Source of the DNA: a virus
Taxonomy: Duplodnaviria; Caudoviricetes
Virus record (IMG/VR): IMGVR_UViG_3300044815_000135
Span: 1-63,072 of that record
Direction: 5' to 3' (one strand)
Length of the DNA stretch: 63,072 nucleotides
Below are positions 1 to 30,891 of this stretch, piece after piece; within the stretch, counting starts at the first letter, position 1; each line of letters begins with the position of its first letter. Below the pieces are notes generated by a model, which saw only the letters and a list, made by a program, of their open reading frames with translations, was not told the DNA's origin and made no database searches. Position numbers and translations under genes: made by a program.

Positions 1-51
1 GTCCAGAAAATTCAACTAAAGACTGAAATCCTTTACTAAAGCCAGTCATTT

Positions 52-264
52 TCATCTTGCGACCCCTAACCATATAGCTGCAATTATAAAACCGAAAGTG
101 GTAATAAGGAAGATGAAGGCAAAAACAACAGCAACCCTGCTGAGTGTATAGTTTTCCTCTGCTTTAGATACCCCAGATATAATTGCTAGAATAATGGCAA
201 AAATAAGAGAAACCCCAGCAGAGAGAAGAGCAGTGAAAATCATATTACACCGCCAACTGTTCAA
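52..264 (-). CDS. small membrane protein (2 TM)
   Basis: Two long hydrophobic segments; tightly packed with neighbours. Confidence 0.6.
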   Translation of the reverse strand: MNSWRCNMIFTALLSAGVSLIFAIILAIISGVSKAEENYTLSRVAVVFAFIFLITTFGFIIAAIWLGVAR

Positions 265-2944: not shown

Positions 2945-3159
2945 CAGAATGTCTCATTAATATCGGAGTACATAGCCTCTTCTTCTAGTTTTGCTTGGCG
3001 CTGGGCATCCGCTTCGTACGCATTCATGAGCGACCAGTAAGCAACAGTCCCATGATGTTTTGACTTTATGTGGTTGTTTAATCTCACCACGCTGGCAAAT
3101 TGCTTCTGGCAGTAAATACAGAAACTATCATCTGGGTCATTAGTGTTATGAATCTGCAT
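2944..3159 (-). CDS. C2H2 zinc-finger protein
   Basis: CIYCQKQFASVVRLNNHIKSKH fits C-x2-C-x3-F-x5-L-x2-H-x4-H. Confidence 0.7.
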   Translation of the reverse strand: MQIHNTNDPDDSFCIYCQKQFASVVRLNNHIKSKHHGTVAYWSLMNAYEADAQRQAKLEEEAMYSDINETF

Positions 3160-3282
3160 GGCTATTTCAACTGCCCAGAAAGAGCTGCTATGGATAGAAA
3201 GGCAAACAAACTAATGGGAAAGCTAGCTATGCAGAGCCAAAAAGCTGTACAAGGGTTCATACCATGTTTGTGAATTACAATC

Positions 3283-3678
3283 TTACTCATTACCCTGGTC
3301 CTCTTTCTCTTGTCGTAGATCTACCTGGCGAGCAACTTGCCATAGAGCTGCAGCCGAGATGTGTGGACCAAAGATACGTCGACCTTTCCACTTAAATGTC
3401 TCGCGGGCTTCATGCTCCCAGTACCCCTTATAGAGACTGAAGATAGTCTGTATCAGTTCAGAATCGCTAGCGTGAGGTGATAAATAGGCTTTGCCTCCAT
3501 AACCAGTACCCCATTCTCCAGTAATGACATCCTGTCGCCAGAATGCTATCTGATAGTAAAAACGGCCGCCTAGCACTTCCTTATCTTGACCGATTTGGAT
3601 GGAGAAGTTATGAGCTAGTTCAATATCTGCTGCAATGTACTCTAATCGAGTTTTAAAACCTATTTGTGTAGTCACCAT
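3283..3678 (-). CDS. conserved hypothetical phage protein
   Basis: GGAG RBS; C-terminal HEARETF..GRRIFGPH motif. Confidence 0.7.
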   Translation of the reverse strand: MVTTQIGFKTRLEYIAADIELAHNFSIQIGQDKEVLGGRFYYQIAFWRQDVITGEWGTGYGGKAYLSPHASDSELIQTIFSLYKGYWEHEARETFKWKGRRIFGPHISAAALWQVARQVDLRQEKEDQGNE

Positions 3679-3684
3679 TTCTCC

Positions 3685-3906
3685 TTAGTATGGCTCATTA
3701 CGAGTCCACCAAACAATAAAATTTATCCTGAGCTTTTGCCAGAACCATAATTTATTCCAATGCCAGCCATGAACCTCTCTCAGAGACTTTCTTACAAGCT
3801 TTATCTCTGAATCAATGATAATATCTGGGGCATCCATCAGGATAAGTTTAGAAAGTCTTTGCTTTCGTTCTTTTAGGAGCTCTTCAGCAGTCATACTTAG
3901 CATCAT
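3685..3906 (-). CDS. hypothetical protein
   Basis: 73 aa, packed against next gene. Confidence 0.5.
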   Translation of the reverse strand: MMLSMTAEELLKERKQRLSKLILMDAPDIIIDSEIKLVRKSLREVHGWHWNKLWFWQKLRINFIVWWTRNEPY

Positions 3907-4169
3907 ATATCAATGGAATATGAGACCCTAGGTACTATTTCTATCATTTTTCTTCCTATTGGCCTCTGGCTCGGATCTTATTGGCAGTGACGTAGTAGTA
4001 AAAAGTTCGCTAAGAGCTCACAGAGGTGCCGTACCATGGTTGGTATTTGCCCCCCCTGTGTTTTTGGGGTTTATTACCCGGGGGGGTTCAGCATATCAGG
4101 ATCCGGGAGCAAAGTCAAGGATATGCAGGAGAATATTTATTCAGGATTGGATGGGCAAAATGAGGATCA

Positions 4170-5646: not shown

Positions 5647-5782
5647 GCTAACATCCTACCAAATCCTCTTACTTATGTCAAGGCAAAAGGCAATCCCGAT
5701 AGCCATCTTCCTAGCCATCCGTGAGACCCTCAGTCCAACCCACTACACACTTCAAAGCCCCCATTCCTGAGGGCCTGAAGCA

Positions 5783-6208
5783 TTAGTTGATGGGAAGAAG
5801 CAAAGATCCTAGGTAAGCAAGTTGAACTGTTGAGGGTGTTACTTTCTCTGTAGTAGAAACCACCGGAGCAACCTCAACTGTCGGGGTAACGATGGTGGTG
5901 TCAACCCATTCCTCCTCGACTACTTGCCAGTTGGGGCAGTCACCGGTTTCGGTCCCAGTGGCCTGAGCAACTTCTGAGGAGCGGCTTGCCTCAACCCAGT
6001 CACCGTAAATGGTAACTCCTTCGACCAGTTCAGCCGGAGCAACCCAGTGAATGGTGGTGAAGGTGATCGTTGCAGTGGTGCAGTCGAGGACTGGTTCCAG
6101 GTACTCGTCATAAGTAGCGGGAGCCGGAGTCTCGTCAGCGTGAGCGATTGCAGCAGGAGCAAGAGCAAGCAGGATGCCTGTCGCAATTGCCAGGATGCGG
6201 ATGTTCAT
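5783..6208 (-). CDS. secreted protein
   Basis: Sec signal peptide with AHA cleavage site; own promoter and RBS. Confidence 0.75.
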   Translation of the reverse strand: MNIRILAIATGILLALAPAAIAHADETPAPATYDEYLEPVLDCTTATITFTTIHWVAPAELVEGVTIYGDWVEASRSSEVAQATGTETGDCPNWQVVEEEWVDTTIVTPTVEVAPVVSTTEKVTPSTVQLAYLGSLLLPIN

Positions 6209-6323
6209 TTTAGTTCCTTTGGTTAGTGAAGCAGTGGATGGAGCTTATAAGAAATACTACCACTTCTTCGCTACTAATGTCAAGGCGATTTATTGGCTGT
6301 TTAAGCCCGTAGGTTTTGAAGAA

Positions 6324-22608: not shown

Positions 22609-25137
22609 CTACTGTCCCTTATACTCAAGTTTGAAGTCATATACCTGTTCGGGGCTTAGCTCAATCTTATCACCCCAATGTTGTCCAACAGATACATCGG
22701 CAACAATTGGAATATCAACCACAGTGCCAAACTTACGAGATACAAGGTCCATATCTTCCATGACATCCTTGATAATGGGTAAGCATCGAAACAACCAGTC
22801 ATCCCTAATCTCATAGTTGATGGCATCATGTACTAATCCAAGACAGTTAGCCGCAGCACCAATTTCTCTGAAACGTCGGTTAATTTCGATCATAGCCAGT
22901 ACAGCCAGGTCAGAAGCAAATCCTTGCACTGGTGAGTTAATGGCCTGACGTTCAGCTTCGGCGCGCACCCCCTGATCGGGTGAATATATATCAGGGAGAT
23001 GACGGATGCGCCCAATCGGACTTTGCACTCGTCCATATTCGTTTACCAGTCGACGCATTTTGGCGTGCCAGGGAAGCAATCTAGGATACAAATCAAAATA
23101 TGCCTTGCGTGCGCCTTGGGCTTCTGACATATTGAAGATAGAACCATAGTTCTCAAATGCGGTAATAATGAACTTACCAGGCCCCATACCATATAGAAAA
23201 CCAAAGTTAACCGGCTTACCTACCTTTTTGCGAATTTCTTTAGTAACTTGAGATTCAGGTAAACCAGTAACGCGCATGGAGGTAGTCATATGAATATCCC
23301 CACCAATAGCATAGATATGCTTCATTGTGGTTTCATTGGCTAGAAGAGCAGCAATCCTTAGCTCAATTTGAGAATAGTCAGATTCTACGAAGGTCCATCC
23401 GGGGGGAGCTCCAAAAAGACCCCTAATGAAAGGGTCCCGGGGGACTTGCTGGAGATTGACACCCCGCATTTTACCCCTAGTACCTGAAATCTTATCTGGG
23501 TCAGATTTGCCTGAACTAAGCCGGCCCGTAACTGTGCCACCGAGCTTGAATGTTGTATGTATCCTATGATCTTCATCGTATAACTCCGCGTATGGTCTAA
23601 AGAAACTGGATAGATGCTTCTGTGCAGTAACTCGCTCAAGCATTCCTTCAACTACCGGGTGCTTATCACGGAGTCCCATGAGAATACCCTCAGCCATGCT
23701 CGGGTCACCAGGCAAACCATCCTGTTTTTGCTTACCTCGTTCAATTATGGGAAGCTCTAGCCAATCAAATAACATCCAACGAGCAAAGATGCTAGCATTG
23801 AAGTTTTCTTTGTAGGGTATACGTTTATCCCCCGACTTCAAATGCTTTACAACTGCAGGCCACCGATCATCTTCGGGTGTGGGAAGTTCTGCAGCATCAC
23901 GGATATTTTGCTCAATACGGGCTAAGTTAGCTTCGGCAATGGGAGTTCGTTCATTGAGTCGTTGTACATCAATCCAAGCTCCTCGGATTTCAGAGTCAAT
24001 TAGGTCTCGTTGAGCAGGCATTGTTAATTTACTAAATACTCTAGCAATTCGAGGTTGAGCCTTTAGTTCTTCAACCAACTGCTGTTTAACCCAGTACATA
24101 TACCAAGTATCAAGAACATTGTAATGTAGGACATCCGCTATGGGGTATGAGTCAAGATTACCAGTATCAATACCCCATGGTTCTACTCCTAGTCGAGACA
24201 TCGCTTGAGGCTTTAGCCCCTTTTGAACATTCTCATTCAATAAGTGGATCGCAAGCATAGTATCAAAGGTAGGATAGAGTTTTACTCCATACCATATTAA
24301 CCACTTACAGTCGAAGCTTGCATTATGAGCAACTACCCTTTTAATCTTGGTACAATGCTTAGCCATGACCTCAAGAATACGTTGCCACATATTACGCCAT
24401 GGTGATTGTACATGAGCGAGGGGAATGGCAAAAACTGCCCGTTTTTTAATACCAAAGCTATCAATGACTACACAAGTGGCAGCAATGGAAATCATTCTAG
24501 AACCTTGCTCAGCCTGATAGTATTCCCCGCCCGCAGTCTCAATATCAACATAGATTTCATCAGTCATATCAAGAATCTTCCAAATCTTCTTGAGTTTTTC
24601 GACTGTGTCACCGACAATGTAATTAGGATCGGGAATACCTTGCTCACGTTCAAGAACCCGATTGGCAAATAGTCTCATATCCGCCATATATCCAGGCTTT
24701 TGCCCAGGATTGCGATTGACTGCTGAAGGAGAAATGGTTGCCATTACTATGGCATCACCATGATCGAAAGGTTTACCTCGATACTTCATAATGCCCGATT
24801 TACCAGCCATTACTTGTAGAGATTCATTACCTAAAGCTAAGATATACTTCGGATTGATTCTTTCAATCTCAGGAAGTAGATACTTAGCAGCATGCTCCTT
24901 GAGTTGCTTAGTGGTTAGAGAAGTATCAAAATCTCGACATTTGATTACTGGAGTAAAGTAAATCTTACTAGGATCAAGACCTAGCTCCTTCAACTCCAGT
25001 TCGAGCGAATCTTGAAATCTGCCAGAAGACTTGCGATTAGTTACTACTACGATTTCTGCATCTTTAGGACCTATAGCATAAGATTCAACATCATGCTCAG
25101 CACAATAGATGCACTGCTCATCAAGTTGAACTACCAT
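22609..25137 (-). CDS. polA: family A DNA polymerase with N-terminal UDG-fold domain and 3'-5' exonuclease
   Basis: DIET, HNASFD, DTM; TVTGRLSS, NLQQVP, DYSQIELR, K.VNFGFLYG, VHD. Confidence 0.95.
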   Translation of the reverse strand: MVVQLDEQCIYCAEHDVESYAIGPKDAEIVVVTNRKSSGRFQDSLELELKELGLDPSKIYFTPVIKCRDFDTSLTTKQLKEHAAKYLLPEIERINPKYILALGNESLQVMAGKSGIMKYRGKPFDHGDAIVMATISPSAVNRNPGQKPGYMADMRLFANRVLEREQGIPDPNYIVGDTVEKLKKIWKILDMTDEIYVDIETAGGEYYQAEQGSRMISIAATCVVIDSFGIKKRAVFAIPLAHVQSPWRNMWQRILEVMAKHCTKIKRVVAHNASFDCKWLIWYGVKLYPTFDTMLAIHLLNENVQKGLKPQAMSRLGVEPWGIDTGNLDSYPIADVLHYNVLDTWYMYWVKQQLVEELKAQPRIARVFSKLTMPAQRDLIDSEIRGAWIDVQRLNERTPIAEANLARIEQNIRDAAELPTPEDDRWPAVVKHLKSGDKRIPYKENFNASIFARWMLFDWLELPIIERGKQKQDGLPGDPSMAEGILMGLRDKHPVVEGMLERVTAQKHLSSFFRPYAELYDEDHRIHTTFKLGGTVTGRLSSGKSDPDKISGTRGKMRGVNLQQVPRDPFIRGLFGAPPGWTFVESDYSQIELRIAALLANETTMKHIYAIGGDIHMTTSMRVTGLPESQVTKEIRKKVGKPVNFGFLYGMGPGKFIITAFENYGSIFNMSEAQGARKAYFDLYPRLLPWHAKMRRLVNEYGRVQSPIGRIRHLPDIYSPDQGVRAEAERQAINSPVQGFASDLAVLAMIEINRRFREIGAAANCLGLVHDAINYEIRDDWLFRCLPIIKDVMEDMDLVSRKFGTVVDIPIVADVSVGQHWGDKIELSPEQVYDFKLEYKGQ

Positions 25138-25149
25138 AAGATAACCCTA

Positions 25150-25584
25150 TCATTTATGAATCGACATCTCAAGAACCTTGATCCCAGCTTTCTCAAGCAG
25201 TTCCACACCCTCAGTGAGTCGATATGGGAAGGTAAAGGTTACTATACTAATACCTGCACTAATTATGGTTCTGGCACAAGCAAGGCAGGGGGCATGAGTT
25301 ACATATAAATCACTACCCTCAAGTGCTGTACCATATCTCGCAGCATAAGCTATTGCGTTTCTCTCAGCATGTTCCGCATTTTCACAACCTCGAGTGCTCT
25401 CAATCATAAGATGATGATGTTCACAATGGGGTAACCCAGTAGGGGCTCCATTATAACCCATGCTAATAATCCGCCCATCTCGGGCAATTACTGCTCCCAC
25501 CTGAAGCCGTTGACAAGTGCCTCGCTTAGCCACAGTGAAAGCCATTTCCATCAGCATCTCACTACGAGAAATTCTTAGTACCAT
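25150..25584 (-). CDS. dCMP deaminase
   Basis: GYNG.P, HAERNA, PCLAC. Confidence 0.92.
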   Translation of the reverse strand: MVLRISRSEMLMEMAFTVAKRGTCQRLQVGAVIARDGRIISMGYNGAPTGLPHCEHHHLMIESTRGCENAEHAERNAIAYAARYGTALEGSDLYVTHAPCLACARTIISAGISIVTFTFPYRLTEGVELLEKAGIKVLEMSIHK

Positions 25585-26489
25585 ATTTTACCCTGCGTTT
25601 TCCAGAAATTGATAAGATCTACATCTTGAGCAAATATGTGCATGTTAGCCGTGTGAAAAATTAAATCGCCAACCTCTAAGCCTGGGTCAGTAAATGGTCC
25701 ATCTATGGCAAGATGATAATCTCTTAATTGTTTTACCATCCACTGCGCCAATCGACCTGCCATATATACATCATCTTGAAAATGACGTAGTAAATCAGTA
25801 GAACGCATGAAGTAAGTGATGTTTAACTTGCCATCACGGATTAAGAAGTGATACCCAAGAGTACAAGGAACTCGCTTACCATGAACAGCTCCAGTATCTT
25901 CAGGGAACCATATAGGTAAATAGGCCTGACGAGTTAATGGTGTTTTATTAAGCTGTTTAATAACATCCTGTAAATCACCAACCTCAAATCGAATACCATG
26001 ATGAGGAAAGGTACGAATCAAATCACCAAGTTTAGGCTCTACTTGATTAGCATATTTCGGCCACATTCGCTCAGGGTAGGTGTGACTAAAGGCCTCACCT
26101 TCACTCTTGTGATCGGCATTGGTAGTTTCACCTTTCTTAGCGAATGGCCACCATGCTTCACTAGGTGAGGGATTTAGTGGTTTACCTCCGACCCTCTCAA
26201 GAAAATGATCCTCAGCCCAAGGCACGCGAGCCCCAGTTTGATTAGCAAGTTCTTCTGCAGTTTCAGGTAATGGCATACTAAAAACTACATTGAGTAGCTC
26301 ATGCATTACCATTTCACCCTTAATGCTTTGCCATTCTCCTACATCTACTGGGTCAGCATCTAAAAGTTCATCTCGCATTTGAACAAACATGCGGTGAAAA
26401 CCATCACCTCGAACTATTTGCTTGGGAATTTCAAAATGGTTAATCAAGTCTATCTCCTTAGGGGCTGGGAAGCGATCTAAAATCGCCAA
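25575..26489 (-). CDS. thymidylate-synthase-fold enzyme, probably dCMP-modifying
   Basis: TRQA, VPC, MRSTDLLRHFQDD, NMHIF. Confidence 0.85.
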   Translation of the reverse strand: MAILDRFPAPKEIDLINHFEIPKQIVRGDGFHRMFVQMRDELLDADPVDVGEWQSIKGEMVMHELLNVVFSMPLPETAEELANQTGARVPWAEDHFLERVGGKPLNPSPSEAWWPFAKKGETTNADHKSEGEAFSHTYPERMWPKYANQVEPKLGDLIRTFPHHGIRFEVGDLQDVIKQLNKTPLTRQAYLPIWFPEDTGAVHGKRVPCTLGYHFLIRDGKLNITYFMRSTDLLRHFQDDVYMAGRLAQWMVKQLRDYHLAIDGPFTDPGLEVGDLIFHTANMHIFAQDVDLINFWKTQGKIWY

Positions 26490-26507: not shown

Positions 26508-27551
26508 TTACTCATCGTCTTCATCAGAGTCATCAAAATCGCCTCCAACAAATGGTTCACCATAGCTTCTACTTGCTGGCATACCAATTGGTGATAAATC
26601 AAGGGTACCAACCTTTACTGAGGGAAGCAACTTGTAGAGCTTAAAAAATTCCTTCTCTTCACCCTTTTTTCCTTTGGCAGTATCCTGCTTGTAATAACTA
26701 TAACCCTCGAACTGCTCCGCATATTTCTCCCCATAAACTTCGGTGTGGAATCGTCGAACAATACGTCGGAAGGTATTGTAAGTCATATCACCATAACTGC
26801 GACCAGAGTTATCCTCTTTAATTACCTTTTGTAACCACTTACGCGAAAGTCTAATCGCAGGATGATTAAGAATCTCTCGTTTTTCTTCATTTGACAAAGC
26901 AGTTGAAGGATCTATCAGCAAGCTACGGTAGCGATTTTGTTTTTCTTCCTCAGTATGATTAAGCATATATGCCAAAGATTTGAAGTTATGCCATTGGATT
27001 GCCTGATTAACCCAGACAAACTTCATTTTCTCAACTGGGATCCCTAATTCTTTAGCCAGATATTTCCCTACGACCCAGGCCACACATAAGTCGAGAGCTC
27101 CGATATAGCCGAGATAGCTTGTTCGGGAGTAGAGAGTAATTTGCGGTACAGGGAGGGCTTTATAGCTGAGGTTAAGCATGCAACTTCCCCAGGTTCTGGT
27201 CTGTTTATTGGTATGCCCAGTTGAAGCTCCCCCCCTTGGTTTGACAATCTTAGTTCTGAGGACGGCGATTCCACGGTTACTGGTTCCAATCTTACTAGTA
27301 CACTGACCAATCCAAGCTTCTAATTCATCCGGGTCAAGATACTGACGAACCATCATCGACCATCGAGACTTAGTAAGCCAAGCCGATTTGAAATCAAAGT
27401 TCCAAGCCATAGAATCAGCTTCACCGATGATGTCATGGATCTGCACATCTACTGAAGAAATAATGTCTAGGTCTTCCTCAGATCCATGAATCAGACTATC
27501 TGTGAGCTTATCGTAAAGTTCTGTCATGGTTGAAGCTGTATAGTGCCTCAT
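26508..27551 (-). CDS. divergent second thymidylate-synthase-fold protein
   Basis: GSCMLNL...LYSRTSYLGYIGALD...QWH aligns with the TS PC/RS.D...N/H.Y motifs. Confidence 0.6.
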   Translation of the reverse strand: MRHYTASTMTELYDKLTDSLIHGSEEDLDIISSVDVQIHDIIGEADSMAWNFDFKSAWLTKSRWSMMVRQYLDPDELEAWIGQCTSKIGTSNRGIAVLRTKIVKPRGGASTGHTNKQTRTWGSCMLNLSYKALPVPQITLYSRTSYLGYIGALDLCVAWVVGKYLAKELGIPVEKMKFVWVNQAIQWHNFKSLAYMLNHTEEEKQNRYRSLLIDPSTALSNEEKREILNHPAIRLSRKWLQKVIKEDNSGRSYGDMTYNTFRRIVRRFHTEVYGEKYAEQFEGYSYYKQDTAKGKKGEEKEFFKLYKLLPSVKVGTLDLSPIGMPASRSYGEPFVGGDFDDSDEDDE

Positions 27552-27979
27552 ACTGGATATCCATACTTTCGAAGGATAGATGCGCCGTCAGGACCAACCC
27601 AACCCTCAGGTTTAATTACATCAAGAGCACTACCTCGTTTAGAATTAGAGCCGTCAGTAGCTGCTCGTTCCTTACGCATGTTCGCCGCCTGAACATCATC
27701 CCAAAGCTCAGGATGCGGAAAGCCAAGCATATGAGAGGTACCAAGAACCACATATTCGAGGTCAATAAGAGCATCAGCCATCTGGGCGTAATCCCCCTCT
27801 TCCCAGCCCTTGAGAAATTCATCGAGTTCTTCTTGCATGAACTGAAGACGGAACTTGATTAAAGCCGCCATATCAAAACTGCTCTTCGGAAGTTGGTGGT
27901 GACCAGGGTCACTAGTTGCCTCAGGTAAACCAAATTTGGCATGGAAGGCTGCAACATCAGCCCAGTGATTTTCACTCAT
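27548..27979 (-). CDS. MazG-like (all-alpha) NTP pyrophosphohydrolase
   Basis: V..FH.KF, EELDE, DALIDL.YV, NM.K, KPEGW..P. Confidence 0.88.
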   Translation of the reverse strand: MSENHWADVAAFHAKFGLPEATSDPGHHQLPKSSFDMAALIKFRLQFMQEELDEFLKGWEEGDYAQMADALIDLEYVVLGTSHMLGFPHPELWDDVQAANMRKERAATDGSNSKRGSALDVIKPEGWVGPDGASILRKYGYPV

Positions 27980-28524
27980 GAAGCTAGTTTCTCTTTCATC
28001 TCTCGGTGTACATCATTAAACCAGATTGGCAAACCGTCAATTTGGATACTGTTTTGATAATCCCACACATGAACGGTTGTTCGTGCATGGGTATAGTCAA
28101 GGGAAGCTCGGGCAACATATGCGGAGTAAATCTGTTCGATGTGTGCAAATACTGCAGCATTATCATTATCTCCGAAGAGGTTGGCTTTTATCTGGTCAAG
28201 AGAGGGTAAGCAGTAGATGATAATGGGCTCAATCTCATAGAACCGCTTCATTCGAGGGGCTAACCAAGCTATTTCGCCAAATCCGGGCTGAGGTTCAGAC
28301 CTAAGTATCGGACCGTAAATAGTTTCTGAAATCAAACGGTGTCGATCGAAGATGGTATTCTGGAAACCAGCATCAAGATTAGCATCCACCCATATCCTCA
28401 GGTTAACCAAAGCCGTAGTTTCTTTACTAACTACTCTAGACGCAACTGGAATATCGAAAGCTTCTTGAAAAGCCTTAATCAACGTTGTTTTTCCTGCGCC
28501 ATCAGGTCCTTCGAAGACTAGCAC
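27976..28524 (-). CDS. dNMP (thymidylate-like) kinase
   Basis: EGPDGAGKTT, DR..ISE.IYG. Confidence 0.85.
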   Translation of the reverse strand: MLVFEGPDGAGKTTLIKAFQEAFDIPVASRVVSKETTALVNLRIWVDANLDAGFQNTIFDRHRLISETIYGPILRSEPQPGFGEIAWLAPRMKRFYEIEPIIIYCLPSLDQIKANLFGDNDNAAVFAHIEQIYSAYVARASLDYTHARTTVHVWDYQNSIQIDGLPIWFNDVHREMKEKLAS

Positions 28525-28581: not shown

Positions 28582-30111
28582 TCAATCACCGAGTGATTGC
28601 CCGAGTCTTAGTAATCTTTCTGGACTTTGGATCATTTTTTTACCAATGTCTCCATCCTCCATCAGCGTTTCATACATAAGAAAATCTACAGTACCCGCTG
28701 CGAGGTAGAATTCGTGAAACGTGGGTTTTTCACTAAGGGCAATTCGATCAGAAAATTGGCGGAAATTGACCCAGCTTGATGGGAGACTGTACCATTGCAA
28801 GATGCTCGCTGCACTGAGATCAATAGCCTCACCCGCCGCGGCAGGCTGTCCAATAAAGATAGCGCCGCCTGATACCTTGCTAAACTGCTTAGGTATCGGC
28901 GCACGATCTGTTTGCTTAACTCCACCATGGATAGCAAACGTTGGTACTCCAAGTCGTTTACCGACCTCAATAAGTCGTTGGATATCGGATTTGAATAACG
29001 CACCTATGACCACCTTTTCATCTGCTTCCATAAGATCCTCGAGTCGATCCTCGATTGCTCTTAGCTTTTCTGCACCAATTACTACCAAACGACCACTAGG
29101 ATATTGCAGAGTTGGGGAAGTTTTACTAATACCGGAAGTTATCTGTTGGAGCCTAAGCCTTTGAACAAGTCGTATACTGGCTTCAGTAATCTCCCCAGTA
29201 TGTATCCTAGCAACCATGTCCTCCGCCATTGCGTCATAGAGCTCGGCGGACTCTTCAAGAGGGACGGGAATAATCTGCGGGGTGATGGGCGGTAAGTCAT
29301 AACATTCCTCTCTAGTAATACTGAAGGAGTCAAGGTGAATCTTAGCATGTAAGTTTTTCTCATTACGACTACCTAGCCACTTTGAATACTTATCCATTGG
29401 CAGCCAACGACCATACTTGTGCTTAAACTCATTGAAGTTCATGCCGGCAAATCGACCGGGATTCAAGAATTTCCATTGGCTATAAATATCGAATAGTCTC
29501 TTACTCTTTGTTACTACGGTACCAGTCATGATAATTCGGTAATCCGCAATAGGTCCAAGGGAATGAAGAGCTGTAGCTTTCTTAGCACTAGGAGATTTAA
29601 TACGATGGCTTTCATCAAGAACTATTAACTGAGGTTGCCATTTCTTGATTTTGTTCTTGAGCTCATAACGACCCCCACGGGTGCTCGATCGTAATTTGTT
29701 GCCATGTTGATCAGTAACTACCTTACCACTCTTGCGATCAATACGGTATCGCCCTGGTGTGGAAAAGGCATCATAATTTACTAGAACAATGTCAAGAATA
29801 TCTTTACCATATGTTGGTAGATCTTGTTCTTTTCTTCCCTTACGATCCCAAATTGTAAGTCTATATGGATAAGGCATGTTATCCTTAAGCTGTTCTTTCC
29901 ACACCTCGATTGCCACAACTGGGCCAACTATGACTATCCGGTTAACTCCAAAGAATTGGTGCAGAATGGCACTATAGTCAACTACAACCTTTGTCTTTCC
30001 AGTTCGGGGTTCCATCAGCAAGGCTCCCCCCCAGCCAGTACTGAGAAGTTTCTTGAGAGCTGCTACCTGATGTTTATAGGGACGCTTTTTGAAACGATAC
30101 TTTTGACTCAC
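28582..30111 (-). CDS. SNF2-like SF2 DNA helicase
   Basis: EPRTGKT, DESH, MTGT, QITSG, RQFSDR. Confidence 0.9.
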   Translation of the reverse strand: MSQKYRFKKRPYKHQVAALKKLLSTGWGGALLMEPRTGKTKVVVDYSAILHQFFGVNRIVIVGPVVAIEVWKEQLKDNMPYPYRLTIWDRKGRKEQDLPTYGKDILDIVLVNYDAFSTPGRYRIDRKSGKVVTDQHGNKLRSSTRGGRYELKNKIKKWQPQLIVLDESHRIKSPSAKKATALHSLGPIADYRIIMTGTVVTKSKRLFDIYSQWKFLNPGRFAGMNFNEFKHKYGRWLPMDKYSKWLGSRNEKNLHAKIHLDSFSITREECYDLPPITPQIIPVPLEESAELYDAMAEDMVARIHTGEITEASIRLVQRLRLQQITSGISKTSPTLQYPSGRLVVIGAEKLRAIEDRLEDLMEADEKVVIGALFKSDIQRLIEVGKRLGVPTFAIHGGVKQTDRAPIPKQFSKVSGGAIFIGQPAAAGEAIDLSAASILQWYSLPSSWVNFRQFSDRIALSEKPTFHEFYLAAGTVDFLMYETLMEDGDIGKKMIQSPERLLRLGQSLGD

Positions 30112-30488
30112 ATTGGCCCATCTTTGTGGAAATGAATATGTTCGGTAGTATAATTACCATCTCTATCTTGGTAAGCATAACAACCTGGACGTTTGTTTTC
30201 AATGTTCCATTTATCCACTTTTTCATCATCCCAAGTATGAGGAGTTTCAGGAGTTGAATAAGCCATAAGAGTCCAAGTACAAAGTTCACCAATCTCATGT
30301 TCAACCAGGTCAGGTCGGCAGTCACTAAGCCAATGACGTTTACGATTACCCCTCTCATCAAAATCATGTTCATAACCCTCTCGAACATAAGTTCCGCAAA
30401 AATGACATTGATGGGTTGTATCTTCTTTAACCATGTTTGGGCCAGAAATATCCTTCGGCGGGTTCTTCACTCCATCCAAATTTGCCAT
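30108..30488 (-). CDS. hypothetical Cys/His protein
   Basis: CHFC, operon packing. Confidence 0.55.
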   Translation of the reverse strand: MANLDGVKNPPKDISGPNMVKEDTTHQCHFCGTYVREGYEHDFDERGNRKRHWLSDCRPDLVEHEIGELCTWTLMAYSTPETPHTWDDEKVDKWNIENKRPGCYAYQDRDGNYTTEHIHFHKDGPM

Positions 30489-30891
30489 AATGATCGGGAT
30501 CCTTTCTTAATAAGTTAGCTCGGTGGGGGGAGTGGAATTTCTTTAACCCCAGCCATCGAGGATCATCGATAATTTGAAACCCCGGTTGGGCTAATAACAA
30601 GTCAGCAGTTTTTTCTAAACAAGTGTCATTAAAACCTCGTCTAATCCATTCTCCGCACATTGCTTCTTGGTATCTTAAAAGACTATGTTCAAACCCTTTC
30701 CACATTAGGGTAGCGGGATGATTAGCCCAAGGAATAGCCCCCCCCTTGATGTCATTATGACCTTGTAAACGGATAAGAGCATGCATAATTTGCATGATTT
30801 CCACTCGTTGTTTACCAAGTCTTTTATCATCAAGTACTCTCGCACTTGATTCAAAACTCTTATATGGTAGAAATGTTTGAATTAGTCTCAC
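30427..30891 (-). CDS. pyrimidine-dimer DNA glycosylase-like (MSMEG_6728 family) protein
   Basis: QTFLPY..F..SA..LD.KRLGKQRVE, HPA..MW.G, HRANLLRKDP..Y. Confidence 0.85.
   Translation of the reverse strand: MRLIQTFLPYKSFESSARVLDDKRLGKQRVEIMQIMHALIRLQGHNDIKGGAIPWANHPATLMWKGFEHSLLRYQEAMCGEWIRRGFNDTCLEKTADLLLAQPGFQIIDDPRWLGLKKFHSPHRANLLRKDPDHYGKFGWSEEPAEGYFWPKHG

What the first reader, a model, noticed from the sequence alone, without database searches (positions are those of the whole stretch)
26508..27551. Degenerate second TS-fold protein: possible heterodimer partner or second-step enzyme
It retains a Cys at the apparent catalytic position (GSC) and the Arg and specificity Asp, but replaces the conserved RSxD Asp with Tyr and adds a roughly 150-aa C-terminal extension with an acidic tail. 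TS-family enzymes are normally homodimers with active sites shared across subunits, so an adjacent divergent paralogue suggests a heterodimer or sequential chemistry. The fold assignment is by eye.
Basis: inference. Interest (0 to 1): 0.78.

Follow-up and report, generated by a model that had tools for sequence, protein, structure and literature searches.

The report
Hidden second thymidylate-synthase-fold enzyme in phages
This unannotated phage gene encodes a very divergent relative of thymidylate synthase that keeps its key catalytic residues and always sits beside a cytosine-type thymidylate synthase homologue, which suggests an undescribed step in making unusual DNA building blocks.

Summary
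The ORF at 26508-27551 (-), 347 aa, is real and conserved. It lies in 85 isolated actinophage genomes, including Muddy gp47, and matches 191 cluster representatives. Pfam and NCBIfam find nothing; PHROG 13667 is "unknown function".

A high-confidence AlphaFold2 model (pLDDT 92.5) settles the fold. Of 48,161 PDB representatives, only 7 reach Z>=5, and all are thymidylate synthase (TS) superfamily: dCMP hydroxylase 15.2, MilA 12.8, ThyA about 11, T4 dCMP hydroxymethylase 10.2. The next best is 4.0.

The protein is not degenerate. Cys124 and Arg143 are invariant in 115/115 relatives, and Asp154 is kept in 111/115. These align with E. coli ThyA Cys146, Arg166 and Asn177. Tyr146 replaces Asp169. 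A 130-aa helical domain of no recognisable fold follows the core. The acidic tail is sporadic (21/115).

The gene is tied to its neighbour. In 78 of 79 IMG/VR loci, a TS homologue lies downstream; the exception is truncated. That homologue has Asp at position 177 in 76/76. The cassette is kinase, NTP pyrophosphatase, X, TS, dCMP deaminase, PolA, and proteobacterial phages carry it too.

Most likely this is an active, folate-independent enzyme acting on a cytosine nucleotide in the neighbour's pathway. Whether it forms a heterodimer or performs a sequential step remains open.

The parts
26508..27551 (-). X: 347-aa divergent TS-fold protein (PHROG 13667; orthologue of Muddy gp47 and Shrew gp74)
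   Evidence: ORF. 85 phage records. 191 cluster representatives. AF2 pLDDT 92.5. TS superfamily is the only fold with Z>=5.
26952..27551 (-). TS-like catalytic core, residues 1-200
   Evidence: VIA-align Z 15.5, rmsd 3.6, 185 residues aligned, model range 1..200 against dCMP hydroxylase 9iqu. Z 15.2 against 9iqc in the unbiased search.
27180..27182 (-). Codon of Cys124, the presumed nucleophile (aligned with E. coli ThyA Cys146)
   Evidence: Invariant in 115/115. Aligned to the catalytic Cys. Also kept in the proteobacterial orthologues.
27114..27125 (-). R143-T144-S145-Y146, the counterpart of the TS 'RSxD' motif, with Tyr in place of Asp169
   Evidence: R143 115/115, S142 112/115, Y146 83/115. 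Register.
27090..27092 (-). Codon of Asp154, aligned with the pyrimidine-specificity position (E. coli Asn177)
   Evidence: D in 111/115 and E in 4/115. Register.
26586..26978 (-). Helical C-terminal domain (residues 192-322) with a conserved basic helix (R263 107/115, R267) and a terminal P-L-P-S...L-x-L strand
   Evidence: Modelled alone at pLDDT 93.8. No structural match: best Z 3.6, and 0 of 48,161 chains at Z>=5. Foldseek finds none at E<=0.001. Conservation.
26511..26540 (-). Acidic tail DFDDSDEDDE
   Evidence: Read directly from the sequence. Only 21 of 115 relatives have >=6 D/E in their last 15 residues. pLDDT is about 51-60 here.
25575..26489 (-). Neighbouring TS homologue, Asp-177 type (predicted dCMP-specific)
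   Evidence: PF00303 at E 4.5e-9. hhalign against E. coli ThyA gives probability 96.5. D240=Asn177 is Asp in 76/76, R206=Leu143 is Arg in 76/76, and C209 is kept in 76/76.
27548..27979 (-). MazG-like NTP pyrophosphohydrolase
   Evidence: PF01503 at E 7.2e-10. phrog_671.
27976..28524 (-). P-loop dNMP/thymidylate-kinase-like protein
   Evidence: phrog_761 'thymidylate kinase' at E 1.7e-14. Pfam and NCBIfam hits are below their cut-offs.
25150..25584 (-). dCMP/cytidine deaminase family protein
   Evidence: PF00383 at E 1.1e-23 and PF14437 at E 8.9e-15.
22609..25137 (-). DNA polymerase I, the downstream end of the cassette
   Evidence: Annotated as DNA polymerase I in syntenic phages. Present in 74/79 loci.

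Best explanation
X is a working member of the thymidylate synthase / dCMP hydroxymethylase superfamily, but from a previously unrecognised clade. It is the obligatory companion of an Asp-177-type TS homologue in a phage nucleotide cassette: dNMP kinase, NTP pyrophosphatase, X, TS(Asp177), dCMP-family deaminase, PolA.

Shown:
- the fold;
- strict conservation of Cys124, Arg143 and Asp154 at the positions of the TS nucleophile, phosphate-binding Arg and base-specificity residue;
- loss of the Asp169 equivalent;
- a family-specific helical domain;
- near-absolute synteny with the neighbour.

Inferred:
- X binds a cytosine-type (deoxy)nucleoside monophosphate.
- Cys124 adds to C6, as in all TS-fold enzymes.
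- Because the folate-contacting Asp is gone, the chemistry at C5 uses no methylene-tetrahydrofolate.
- The most economical role is a second step on the product, or the exocyclic-methylene-type intermediate, of the neighbouring TS homologue. That step would come before the kinase sends the modified dCMP towards DNA.
- X may do this as a separate enzyme or in a complex with the neighbour.
For: Fold.
- AF2 model pLDDT 92.5.
- Only TS-superfamily chains reach Z>=5 among 48,161, with scores 15.2 to 10.2 and the next at 4.0.
- The best matches are the cytosine-nucleotide enzymes AfhB-type dCMP hydroxylase and MilA.
- In BFVD the PMBT14 positional orthologue matches at E 4e-8.
- In the ESM Atlas feature search, 20 of 30 hits fall in clusters carrying PF00303.

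Active-site conservation.
- Across 115 relatives at 21-49% identity: C124 115/115, R143 115/115, G122 115/115, Y71 115/115, S142 112/115, R63 111/115, D154 111/115 plus 4 Glu, W180 114/115, H188 82/115.
- G-x-C, Y-R-S/T and A-D-L persist in proteobacterial-phage orthologues at 17-19% identity.
- The register to TS is the same in three profile comparisons.

Linkage.
- TS lies downstream of X in 78/79 IMG/VR loci; deaminase 74/79, kinase 73/79, PolA 74/79.
- The 85 actinophage records with X match by organism count the 85 with this TS subfamily.
- The gene order is the same in Shrew, Muddy, KimJongPhill, Azira, Serbin, PMBT14 and Strzyga.
- The annotated X and TS genes overlap or abut within 2 nt in 7 of the 8 annotated pairs I read. 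Shrew has a small ORF between them.

Pathway context.
- The neighbour has Asp at position 177 in 76/76.
- Passages of 10.1101/2024.12.05.627091 and PMC8670742 report that deaminase + TS(Asp177) + PRA-PH + PolA neighbourhoods mark phage contigs with modified cytosine.
- Two uncultured phages carry ThyX in the same cassette, so X and TS are not needed there for dTMP.
Against: - No sequence method reaches significance for the X-TS relationship. Pfam finds 0 families even at E<=10. 0 of 115 relatives hit PF00303. The family profile finds no TS in the PDB. hhalign probabilities are 0.7-4.9%. The residue equivalences therefore rest on consistent but weak alignments plus the fold. I could not inspect model coordinates.
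- No substrate, cofactor or product is shown.
- The equivalents of Glu58, Tyr94 and the folate-binding Trp residues could not be mapped.
- The loop that supplies Arg126/Arg127 across the TS dimer is poorly kept (R93 in 61/115), so phosphate binding may differ.
- No phage with this cassette has published evidence of modified DNA in the papers I searched.
- The Xp12/AXL1-type 5mC cassette works without X, so X is not a general requirement for cytosine replacement.
Confidence: 0.45

Rival explanations
1. X is one subunit of a heterodimer (or hetero-oligomer) with the neighbouring TS homologue. TS-fold enzymes build each active site from both subunits, so X would complete or regulate the neighbour's site, and the neighbour would complete X's site. 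Under this reading X is not a free-standing enzyme.
For: - Obligate pairing of the two paralogues.
- Start/stop overlap or abutment in 7 of 8 annotated pairs. This is typical of genes made in fixed ratio.
- The neighbour keeps one Arg of the cross-subunit pair (R187 in 76/76, with Gln at the second position). X keeps the equivalent Arg in only 61/115.
- Established knowledge: TS is an obligate dimer with shared sites and half-of-the-sites reactivity.
Against: - X keeps its own invariant Cys, Arg and Asp, which a purely structural or regulatory partner need not do.
- In many IMG/VR loci, 300-1100 nt separate X from the TS match, for example L030 and L031. In Shrew a small ORF intervenes.
- No fused X-TS protein was found among longer proteins, which is weak evidence.
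- The large C-terminal domain packs onto the core with pTM 0.90 as a monomer model. I could not check whether it occupies the dimer face.
Confidence: 0.25
2. X is an independent enzyme acting in parallel on a different nucleotide from its neighbour, as phage T4 carries both td (dUMP to dTMP) and gp42 (dCMP to hm-dCMP). For example, X might modify or salvage dUMP, CMP or dCMP for a separate purpose.
For: - Precedent: two TS-fold paralogues with different substrates in one phage (T4 td and gp42, recalled knowledge; 1b49/6l18 appear among the fold matches).
- A dCMP-family deaminase that could supply dUMP is in 74/79 cassettes.
Against: - The specificity position is Asp or Glu in 115/115, not Asn, which points to cytosine as for the neighbour.
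- The Asp169 equivalent is lost, so a normal folate-dependent methyl or hydroxymethyl transfer is unlikely.
- Two related cassettes add ThyX for dTMP while keeping both X and TS.
Confidence: 0.12
3. X is a non-catalytic nucleotide-binding protein. It could be a sensor or regulator of the pathway, an inhibitor that poisons the host's TS by mixed dimer formation, or an adaptor that ties the nucleotide enzymes to the replisome through its basic helical domain and acidic tail.
For: - A family-specific 130-aa domain with a very basic conserved helix (R263 in 107/115, R267 in 80/115 plus 12 Lys) and pI 9.3.
- An acidic tail in this protein and in 21/115 relatives.
- The cassette sits among replication genes: SNF2 helicase and PolA.
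Against: - An invariant Cys at the nucleophile position over such divergence is hard to explain without chemistry.
- The acidic tail is not conserved.
- The helical domain matches no DNA-binding or other fold: best Z 3.6, and earlier winged-helix-like rows at Z 2.4-2.9 are below any meaningful level.
Confidence: 0.1

Closest known systems
Flavin-dependent dCMP 5-hydroxylase (phage HY126 AfhB, PDB 9iqu/9iqc; RB69 gp48-type 5hodCMP synthases)
   Same: It is the best structural match: Z 15.2-15.5, rmsd 3.5-3.6, 185 residues. Both are compact TS-like cores that use a Cys, act on a cytosine nucleotide and do not transfer a folate one-carbon unit (passages of PMC13326640).
   Different: Sequence identity is 11% and no sequence method links them. 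The diagnostic Asp169-to-Asn signature of 5hodCMP synthases (PMC13326640 section 28) is absent: X has Tyr in 83/115 and Asn in only 4/115. X carries an extra 130-aa helical domain. Whether X binds flavin is unknown.
MilA, CMP 5-hydroxymethylase of mildiomycin biosynthesis (PDB 5jnh, 5b6d/e)
   Same: It is the second-best structural match: Z 12.8-14.9. It has Asp at the specificity position.
   Different: MilA is a folate-dependent PF00303 member. X fails PF00303 and lacks the Asp169 equivalent. At the position aligned with Leu143, X has a bulky Trp (W121 in 91/115), whereas hydroxymethylases have an acidic residue there (passage).
Canonical ThyA and T4 dCMP hydroxymethylase gp42
   Same: Same fold: Z 10.2-11.9. 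The same positions hold Cys146, Arg166, His207 and Trp201 in the alignment to real E. coli ThyA. T4 also carries two TS-fold paralogues.
   Different: There is no significant sequence similarity. Asp169 is replaced. The C-terminal folate-closing segment is replaced by a new domain. X is always paired with a second TS homologue and is not found as a lone gene.
Xp12 / PaMx74 / AXL1-type 5-methylcytosine replacement cassette: TS(Asp177) + 5mC-selective deaminase + PRA-PH pyrophosphatase + PolA
   Same: The surrounding cassette in the window has the same components. They match the neighbourhood described for modified-cytosine contigs (passages of 10.1101/2024.12.05.627091; PMC8670742).
   Different: AXL1 lists DHFR, deaminase, TS and pyrophosphohydrolase as consecutive genes with no X (passages of PMC9206674). 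The window's TS subfamily has Arg at the Leu143 position in 76/76, which is neither the hydrophobic nor the acidic residue discussed for methyl or hydroxymethyl products. It did not match Xanthomonas or Stenotrophomonas phages at E<=1e-20.

Membership tests
Thymidylate synthase / dCMP hydroxymethylase superfamily (fold level) | TS-like alpha/beta fold | tested here: met
   AF2 pLDDT 92.5. 7 of 48,161 chains reach Z>=5, all are TS superfamily at Z 15.2-10.2, and the next is 4.0. Foldseek top match E 1.9e-7.
Thymidylate synthase / dCMP hydroxymethylase superfamily (fold level) | Catalytic Cys (E. coli Cys146) preceding the central strand | tested here: met
   C124 is invariant in 115/115. It aligns to the catalytic Cys. 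Each alignment is individually weak.
Thymidylate synthase / dCMP hydroxymethylase superfamily (fold level) | Phosphate-binding Arg166 in the R-S-x-D motif | tested here: met
   R143 is kept in 115/115. Register.
Pfam Thymidylat_synt (PF00303), the folate-dependent TS / hydroxymethylase family | Match to the family profile above the gathering score | tested here: not met
   0 families at E<=10 for X. 0 of 115 relatives match PF00303 at E<=1. NCBIfam finds none.
Pfam Thymidylat_synt (PF00303), the folate-dependent TS / hydroxymethylase family | Asp169 of the R-S-x-D motif (contacts the folate cofactor; recalled knowledge) | tested here: not met
   Y146 in the window. Across the family: Y 83, F 10, N 4, R 4 of 115. 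The proteobacterial orthologues have Glu.
Pfam Thymidylat_synt (PF00303), the folate-dependent TS / hydroxymethylase family | Arg126/Arg127 loop donated to the partner subunit's active site | tested here: inconclusive
   The candidate R93 is kept in 61/115 and G94 in 93/115. The alignment is unreliable in this region.
Pfam Thymidylat_synt (PF00303), the folate-dependent TS / hydroxymethylase family | Glu58, Tyr94, Trp80/Trp83 and the C-terminal segment that closes over folate | not testable with these tools
Cytosine-specific TS homologues (T4 gp42, MilA, Xp12 TS) | Asp at the position of E. coli Asn177 | tested here: met
   D154 in 111/115 plus Glu in 4/115. Register. The rule itself comes from passages.
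5hodCMP synthases (RB69 gp48 / AfhB type) | Asn at the position of Asp169 (D169N signature) | tested here: not met
   Tyr in the window; Asn in only 4 of 115 relatives. The signature comes from PMC13326640 section 28.
5hodCMP synthases (RB69 gp48 / AfhB type) | Bound flavin cofactor | not testable with these tools
   No ligand modelling was possible. This needs UV-vis or HPLC of the purified protein.

The most novel reading that the evidence does not exclude
The X + TS(Asp177, Arg143) pair is a two-component system that makes a not-yet-described C5-modified cytosine nucleotide for the DNA of Muddy-, Emalyn-, Zuko- and Triscuit-like actinophages and of Serbin/PMBT14-like proteobacterial siphophages. 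In this system X would catalyse a new, folate-independent reaction for the TS fold: Cys-C6 covalent catalysis that re-forms an exocyclic methylene on the neighbour's product and captures it with a hydride or a nucleophile.
Probability: 0.3. Interest if true: 0.85.

Novelty: new variant of a known kind. Interest (0 to 1): 0.62.

Why it matters
TS-fold enzymes are the entry point for nearly all known pyrimidine replacements in phage DNA: 5mC, 5hmC, 5hmU and, recently, 5-hydroxy-C.

This clade is invisible to Pfam and NCBIfam and is labelled 'hypothetical protein' in all the isolated-phage records listed. These include Muddy, a phage used therapeutically against Mycobacterium abscessus (title and abstract of PMC8461822 in the listing).

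If the clade is active, these phages would have an extra, uncharacterised step in nucleotide modification. That would bear on three things: how their DNA escapes restriction, how they can be engineered or rebooted, and which new chemistries the TS scaffold supports.

It also turns an open question into a direct test. Whether these actinophages carry modified cytosine can be settled by nucleoside LC-MS and a two-gene co-expression assay.

Tried and rejected
Sequence routes to TS
- BLASTP of X against the neighbour found nothing; best E was 1.6.
- Pfam at E<=10 and NCBIfam at E<=1 found nothing.
- phmmer and the family profile against PDB sequences gave only noise: SEC62 at E 1.6 and A20 at E 0.036.
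- hhalign gave consistent but non-significant alignments. A global hhalign was meaningless.

Heterodimer prediction
- The X + neighbour job returned 'no answer', with score 0.00 against a mark of 0.32, and the controls were not run. This is neither for nor against binding.

Fused forms
- None were found among proteins of 609-2000 aa, which is weak evidence.

C-terminal domain
- Winged-helix-like rows at Z 2.4-2.9 in the whole-model search prompted a separate model of residues 192-322, with pLDDT 93.8.
- That model matched nothing: best Z 3.6 and no Foldseek match at E<=0.001. I therefore dropped the DNA-binding-domain idea.

Nucleotide similarity
- Megablast of the 4-kb region against the phage records found no match.

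Searches that failed
It worked with a smaller alignment on viral contigs.
Occurrence in cellular genomes and prophages is therefore untested.

Literature
- Seven searches and the passages I read turned up no description of this protein family. They also turned up no DNA-modification data for any phage carrying it.
- The epigenetic-modification paper on Muddy and BPs concerns restriction of BPs, not Muddy, so it says nothing here.
The gene-neighbourhood figures of 10.1101/2024.12.05.627091 may show this ORF.

A flaw to note
- The proteobacterial-type profile accidentally included two out-of-frame PMBT14 ORFs.
Full report
WHAT IS THERE

The window is a complete 63,072-bp virus record. The ORF at 26508-27551 on the minus strand encodes 347 aa. 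Its ATG overlaps the stop codon of the upstream MazG-like gene (ATGA). It lies in a minus-strand operon with this order:
- SNF2-type helicase (28582-30111)
- P-loop dNMP-kinase-like protein (27976-28524)
- MazG/PRA-PH pyrophosphohydrolase (27548-27979)
- X (26508-27551)
- TS homologue (25575-26489)
- dCMP-family deaminase (25150-25584)
- DNA polymerase I (22609-25137)

X has no Pfam match even at E<=10 and no NCBIfam match. It matches PHROG 13667, 'unknown function', at E 1e-111.

IS IT REAL?

Yes.
- tblastn finds it in 85 phage records: Gordonia 68, Mycobacterium 9, Streptomyces 4, Microbacterium 2, Curtobacterium 1, Mycobacteroides 1.
- The closest is Curtobacterium phage Shrew gp74 at 79.5% identity, and Muddy gp47 is a member. 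It is annotated 'hypothetical protein' in all 40 rows listed.
- phmmer against 1.84 billion representatives gives 191 proteins at E<=1e-3 and 52 at E<=1e-30.

FOLD

Sequence methods do not connect X to TS.
- BLASTP against the neighbour: best E 1.6.
- 0 of 115 relatives hit PF00303.
- The family profile finds no TS among PDB sequences.

Structure prediction does connect them.
- With a 115-sequence alignment, AlphaFold2 gives pLDDT 92.5 and pTM 0.90.
- Foldseek against the PDB returns 117 matches at E<=0.001. The listed rows to rank 49 are all TS, dCMP hydroxymethylase, MilA or dCMP hydroxylase.
- VIA-align gives Z 15.5, rmsd 3.6 and 185 aligned residues over model residues 1-200 against the phage HY126 dCMP hydroxylase. 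MilA scores 12.8-14.9 and classical TS about 11-12.
- In a search that does not depend on Foldseek, exactly 7 of 48,161 representative chains reach Z>=5. All seven are TS superfamily, and the eighth scores 4.0.
- BFVD and the ESM Atlas agree.

ACTIVE-SITE RESIDUES

Three profile comparisons align the same segment in the same register:
- X family against the neighbour's family: E 0.081.
- X family against a more diverse set of 78 neighbour-type TS: E 0.008, 67 columns.
- X family against E. coli ThyA taken from the MG1655 record: E 0.071.

None of these is significant on its own. The shared register gives:

| X residue | E. coli ThyA position |
|---|---|
| W121 | Leu143 |
| C124 | Cys146 |
| M125 | His147 |
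| R143 | Arg166 |
| T144 | Ser167 |
| Y146 | Asp169 |
| D154 | Asn177 |
| W180 | Trp201 |
| H188 | His207 |

Across 115 relatives that are only 21-49% identical to the window protein:
- C124, R143, G122 and Y71 are invariant.
- S142 is kept in 112, R63 in 111 and W180 in 114.
- D154 is Asp in 111 and Glu in 4.

So the nucleophile, the phosphate Arg and an acidic residue at the base-specificity position are under strong selection. 'Degenerate' is the wrong word.

What is lost is Asp169, which is Tyr in 83/115. The loop that in TS donates Arg126/127 to the partner subunit also appears to be weakened (R93 in 61/115).

THE EXTENSION

- Residues from about 192 to 322 form a helical domain. It packs confidently on the core and folds confidently alone (pLDDT 93.8).
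- It matches nothing: best Z 3.6 among 48,161 chains and no Foldseek match at E<=0.001.
- It carries a conserved basic helix (R263 in 107/115; R267 in 80 plus 12 Lys) and a conserved terminal P-L-P-S...L-x-L strand.
- By eye, that strand resembles the P-x-P...L-x-I strand near the C-terminus of classical TS. If so, the 'extension' is partly an insertion. This is inference only.
- The acidic tail is present here but in only 21 of 115 relatives. The proteobacterial orthologues are about 260-280 aa.

LINKAGE TO THE NEIGHBOUR

- In 79 IMG/VR loci that encode X, tblastn finds the neighbour-type TS downstream in 78. The exception, L027, ends where X ends.
- In the same loci the deaminase is found in 74, the kinase in 73, the SNF2 helicase in 76 and PolA in 74.
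- Among isolated phages the TS subfamily occurs in 103 records. The actinophage counts are identical to those for X, totalling 85. The other 18 are Serratia, Pseudomonas, Brevundimonas, Stutzerimonas, Desulfofustis and uncultured phages.
- In all 7 such loci that I opened, an ORF immediately upstream of the TS is an X orthologue:
  - Serbin, Strzyga, MW202455, MW202777 and the Desulfofustis phage by profile, E 7e-4 to 5e-7.
  - PMBT14 by structure, E 4e-8, and by alignment.
  - The Stutzerimonas phage by a clade-specific profile (with the flaw noted under Tried and rejected).
- These distant orthologues keep G-x-C, Y-R-S/T-T-E and A-D-L. They still have an acidic residue, Glu, at the Asp169 position.
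- In 7 of 8 annotated pairs, X and TS overlap or abut within 2 nt. The window has an 18-nt spacer.
- One record, MW202455.1, labels the orthologue 'pyrimidine hmase synthase'. An automatic pipeline has therefore glimpsed the relationship once.

WHAT THE NEIGHBOUR IS

It is a true PF00303 member (hhalign probability 96.5 against E. coli ThyA), with four distinctive features:
- Asp at position 177 in 76/76.
- Arg at position 143 in 76/76.
- Thr or Ser at position 147.
- A chain that ends about 20 residues after the His207 equivalent.

Passages in PMC13326640, PMC8670742 and 10.1101/2024.12.05.627091 state three relevant points. Asp177 switches the substrate to dCMP. Deaminase + TS(Asp177) + PRA-PH + PolA neighbourhoods mark phage contigs with modified cytosine. 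In Xp12-like phages the deaminase converts 5-methyl-dCTP to dTTP. The window's cassette has these components plus a kinase and X.

AXL1, a presumed 5mC phage, lists DHFR, deaminase, TS and pyrophosphohydrolase as consecutive genes without X. X is therefore specific to this TS subfamily.

Two uncultured phages add ThyX to the cassette while keeping both X and TS. That argues against the pair existing for dTMP synthesis.

MOST LIKELY MECHANISM

Shown: fold, conserved residues, synteny.

Inferred: X binds a cytosine-type mononucleotide through Arg143 and other arginines and through Asp154. Cys124 adds to C6. Because the Asp169 equivalent is gone and the C-terminal folate lid is replaced, the chemistry at C5 does not use methylene-tetrahydrofolate. 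The simplest role is a second step on the neighbour's product, before the kinase and the polymerase. I give this 0.45.

A heterodimer with the neighbour is the main rival at 0.25, and it is not exclusive of catalysis. The structure-prediction test of that pairing gave no answer, so it counts neither way. A parallel enzyme on another substrate (0.12) and a non-catalytic binder or adaptor (0.10) remain possible.

KNOWN OR NEW?

At fold level X belongs to the TS / dCMP hydroxymethylase superfamily. It fails the sequence definition of PF00303, lacks the Asp169 feature and does not carry the D169N signature of 5-hydroxy-dCMP synthases. I file it as a new variant of a known kind.

My seven literature searches and the passages read found no description of the family. 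They also found no DNA-modification data for a phage that carries it.

LIMITS

- No coordinates of the models could be inspected.
- Cellular genomes could not be scanned.
- The notes of earlier sessions were closed.
- No experiment bears on substrate, product or oligomeric state.

Noticed in passing
window 25575-26489 (-): The neighbouring TS homologue belongs to a distinct subfamily. It has Asp at E. coli position 177 (76/76), Arg at position 143 (76/76, neither the hydrophobic nor the acidic residue discussed for methyl or hydroxymethyl products) and Thr/Ser at position 147. It has unusual invariant motifs (PWAEDHFxERV, FSHTYPER) and ends about 20 residues after the His207 equivalent. Its product is unknown.
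   Followed up: partly
window 27548-27979 (-), and the slot between kinase and X in L011-L089: The pyrophosphatase slot is variable. The window's PRA-PH/MazG type is found by tblastn in only 8 of 79 related loci. The others have a different gene of about 600 bp there, annotated dUTPase or NTP-PPase in isolated phages.
   Followed up: partly
L090 (MW202777.1) 5672-6304 and L093 (MW202455.1) 1839-2495: Two uncultured phage genomes carry a FAD-dependent thymidylate synthase (ThyX) inside the same cassette, in addition to X and the TS homologue.
   Followed up: no
L090 (MW202777.1) 3007-4020: The X orthologue in this GenBank record is not annotated at all: the annotation has a gap between 3221 and 4010. 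The family profile hits the open frame at E 9.6e-6. In MW202455.1 the orthologue is labelled 'pyrimidine hmase synthase'.
   Followed up: partly
window 30427-30891 (-): A T4 denV-like pyrimidine-dimer DNA glycosylase (PF03013, E 2.7e-21) lies just upstream of the cassette.
   Followed up: no
whole window: G+C is 40-52% in 2-kb windows. The nearest isolated relatives infect Curtobacterium and Microbacterium, which I recall as high-G+C hosts. Such a mismatch would raise the phage's demand for dTTP relative to the host pool.
   Followed up: no
L001 (Shrew) 6022-6177; L030, L031: Small extra ORFs or gaps of up to 1.1 kb are inserted between X and the TS homologue in some relatives. I did not examine what is inserted.
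   Followed up: no
window 26508-27551 (-), residue 9: The ESM Atlas holds this protein starting at Met9. The first eight residues, MRHYTA.T, are conserved in Shrew and partly in Muddy, which favours the upstream ATG at 27551.
   Followed up: partly
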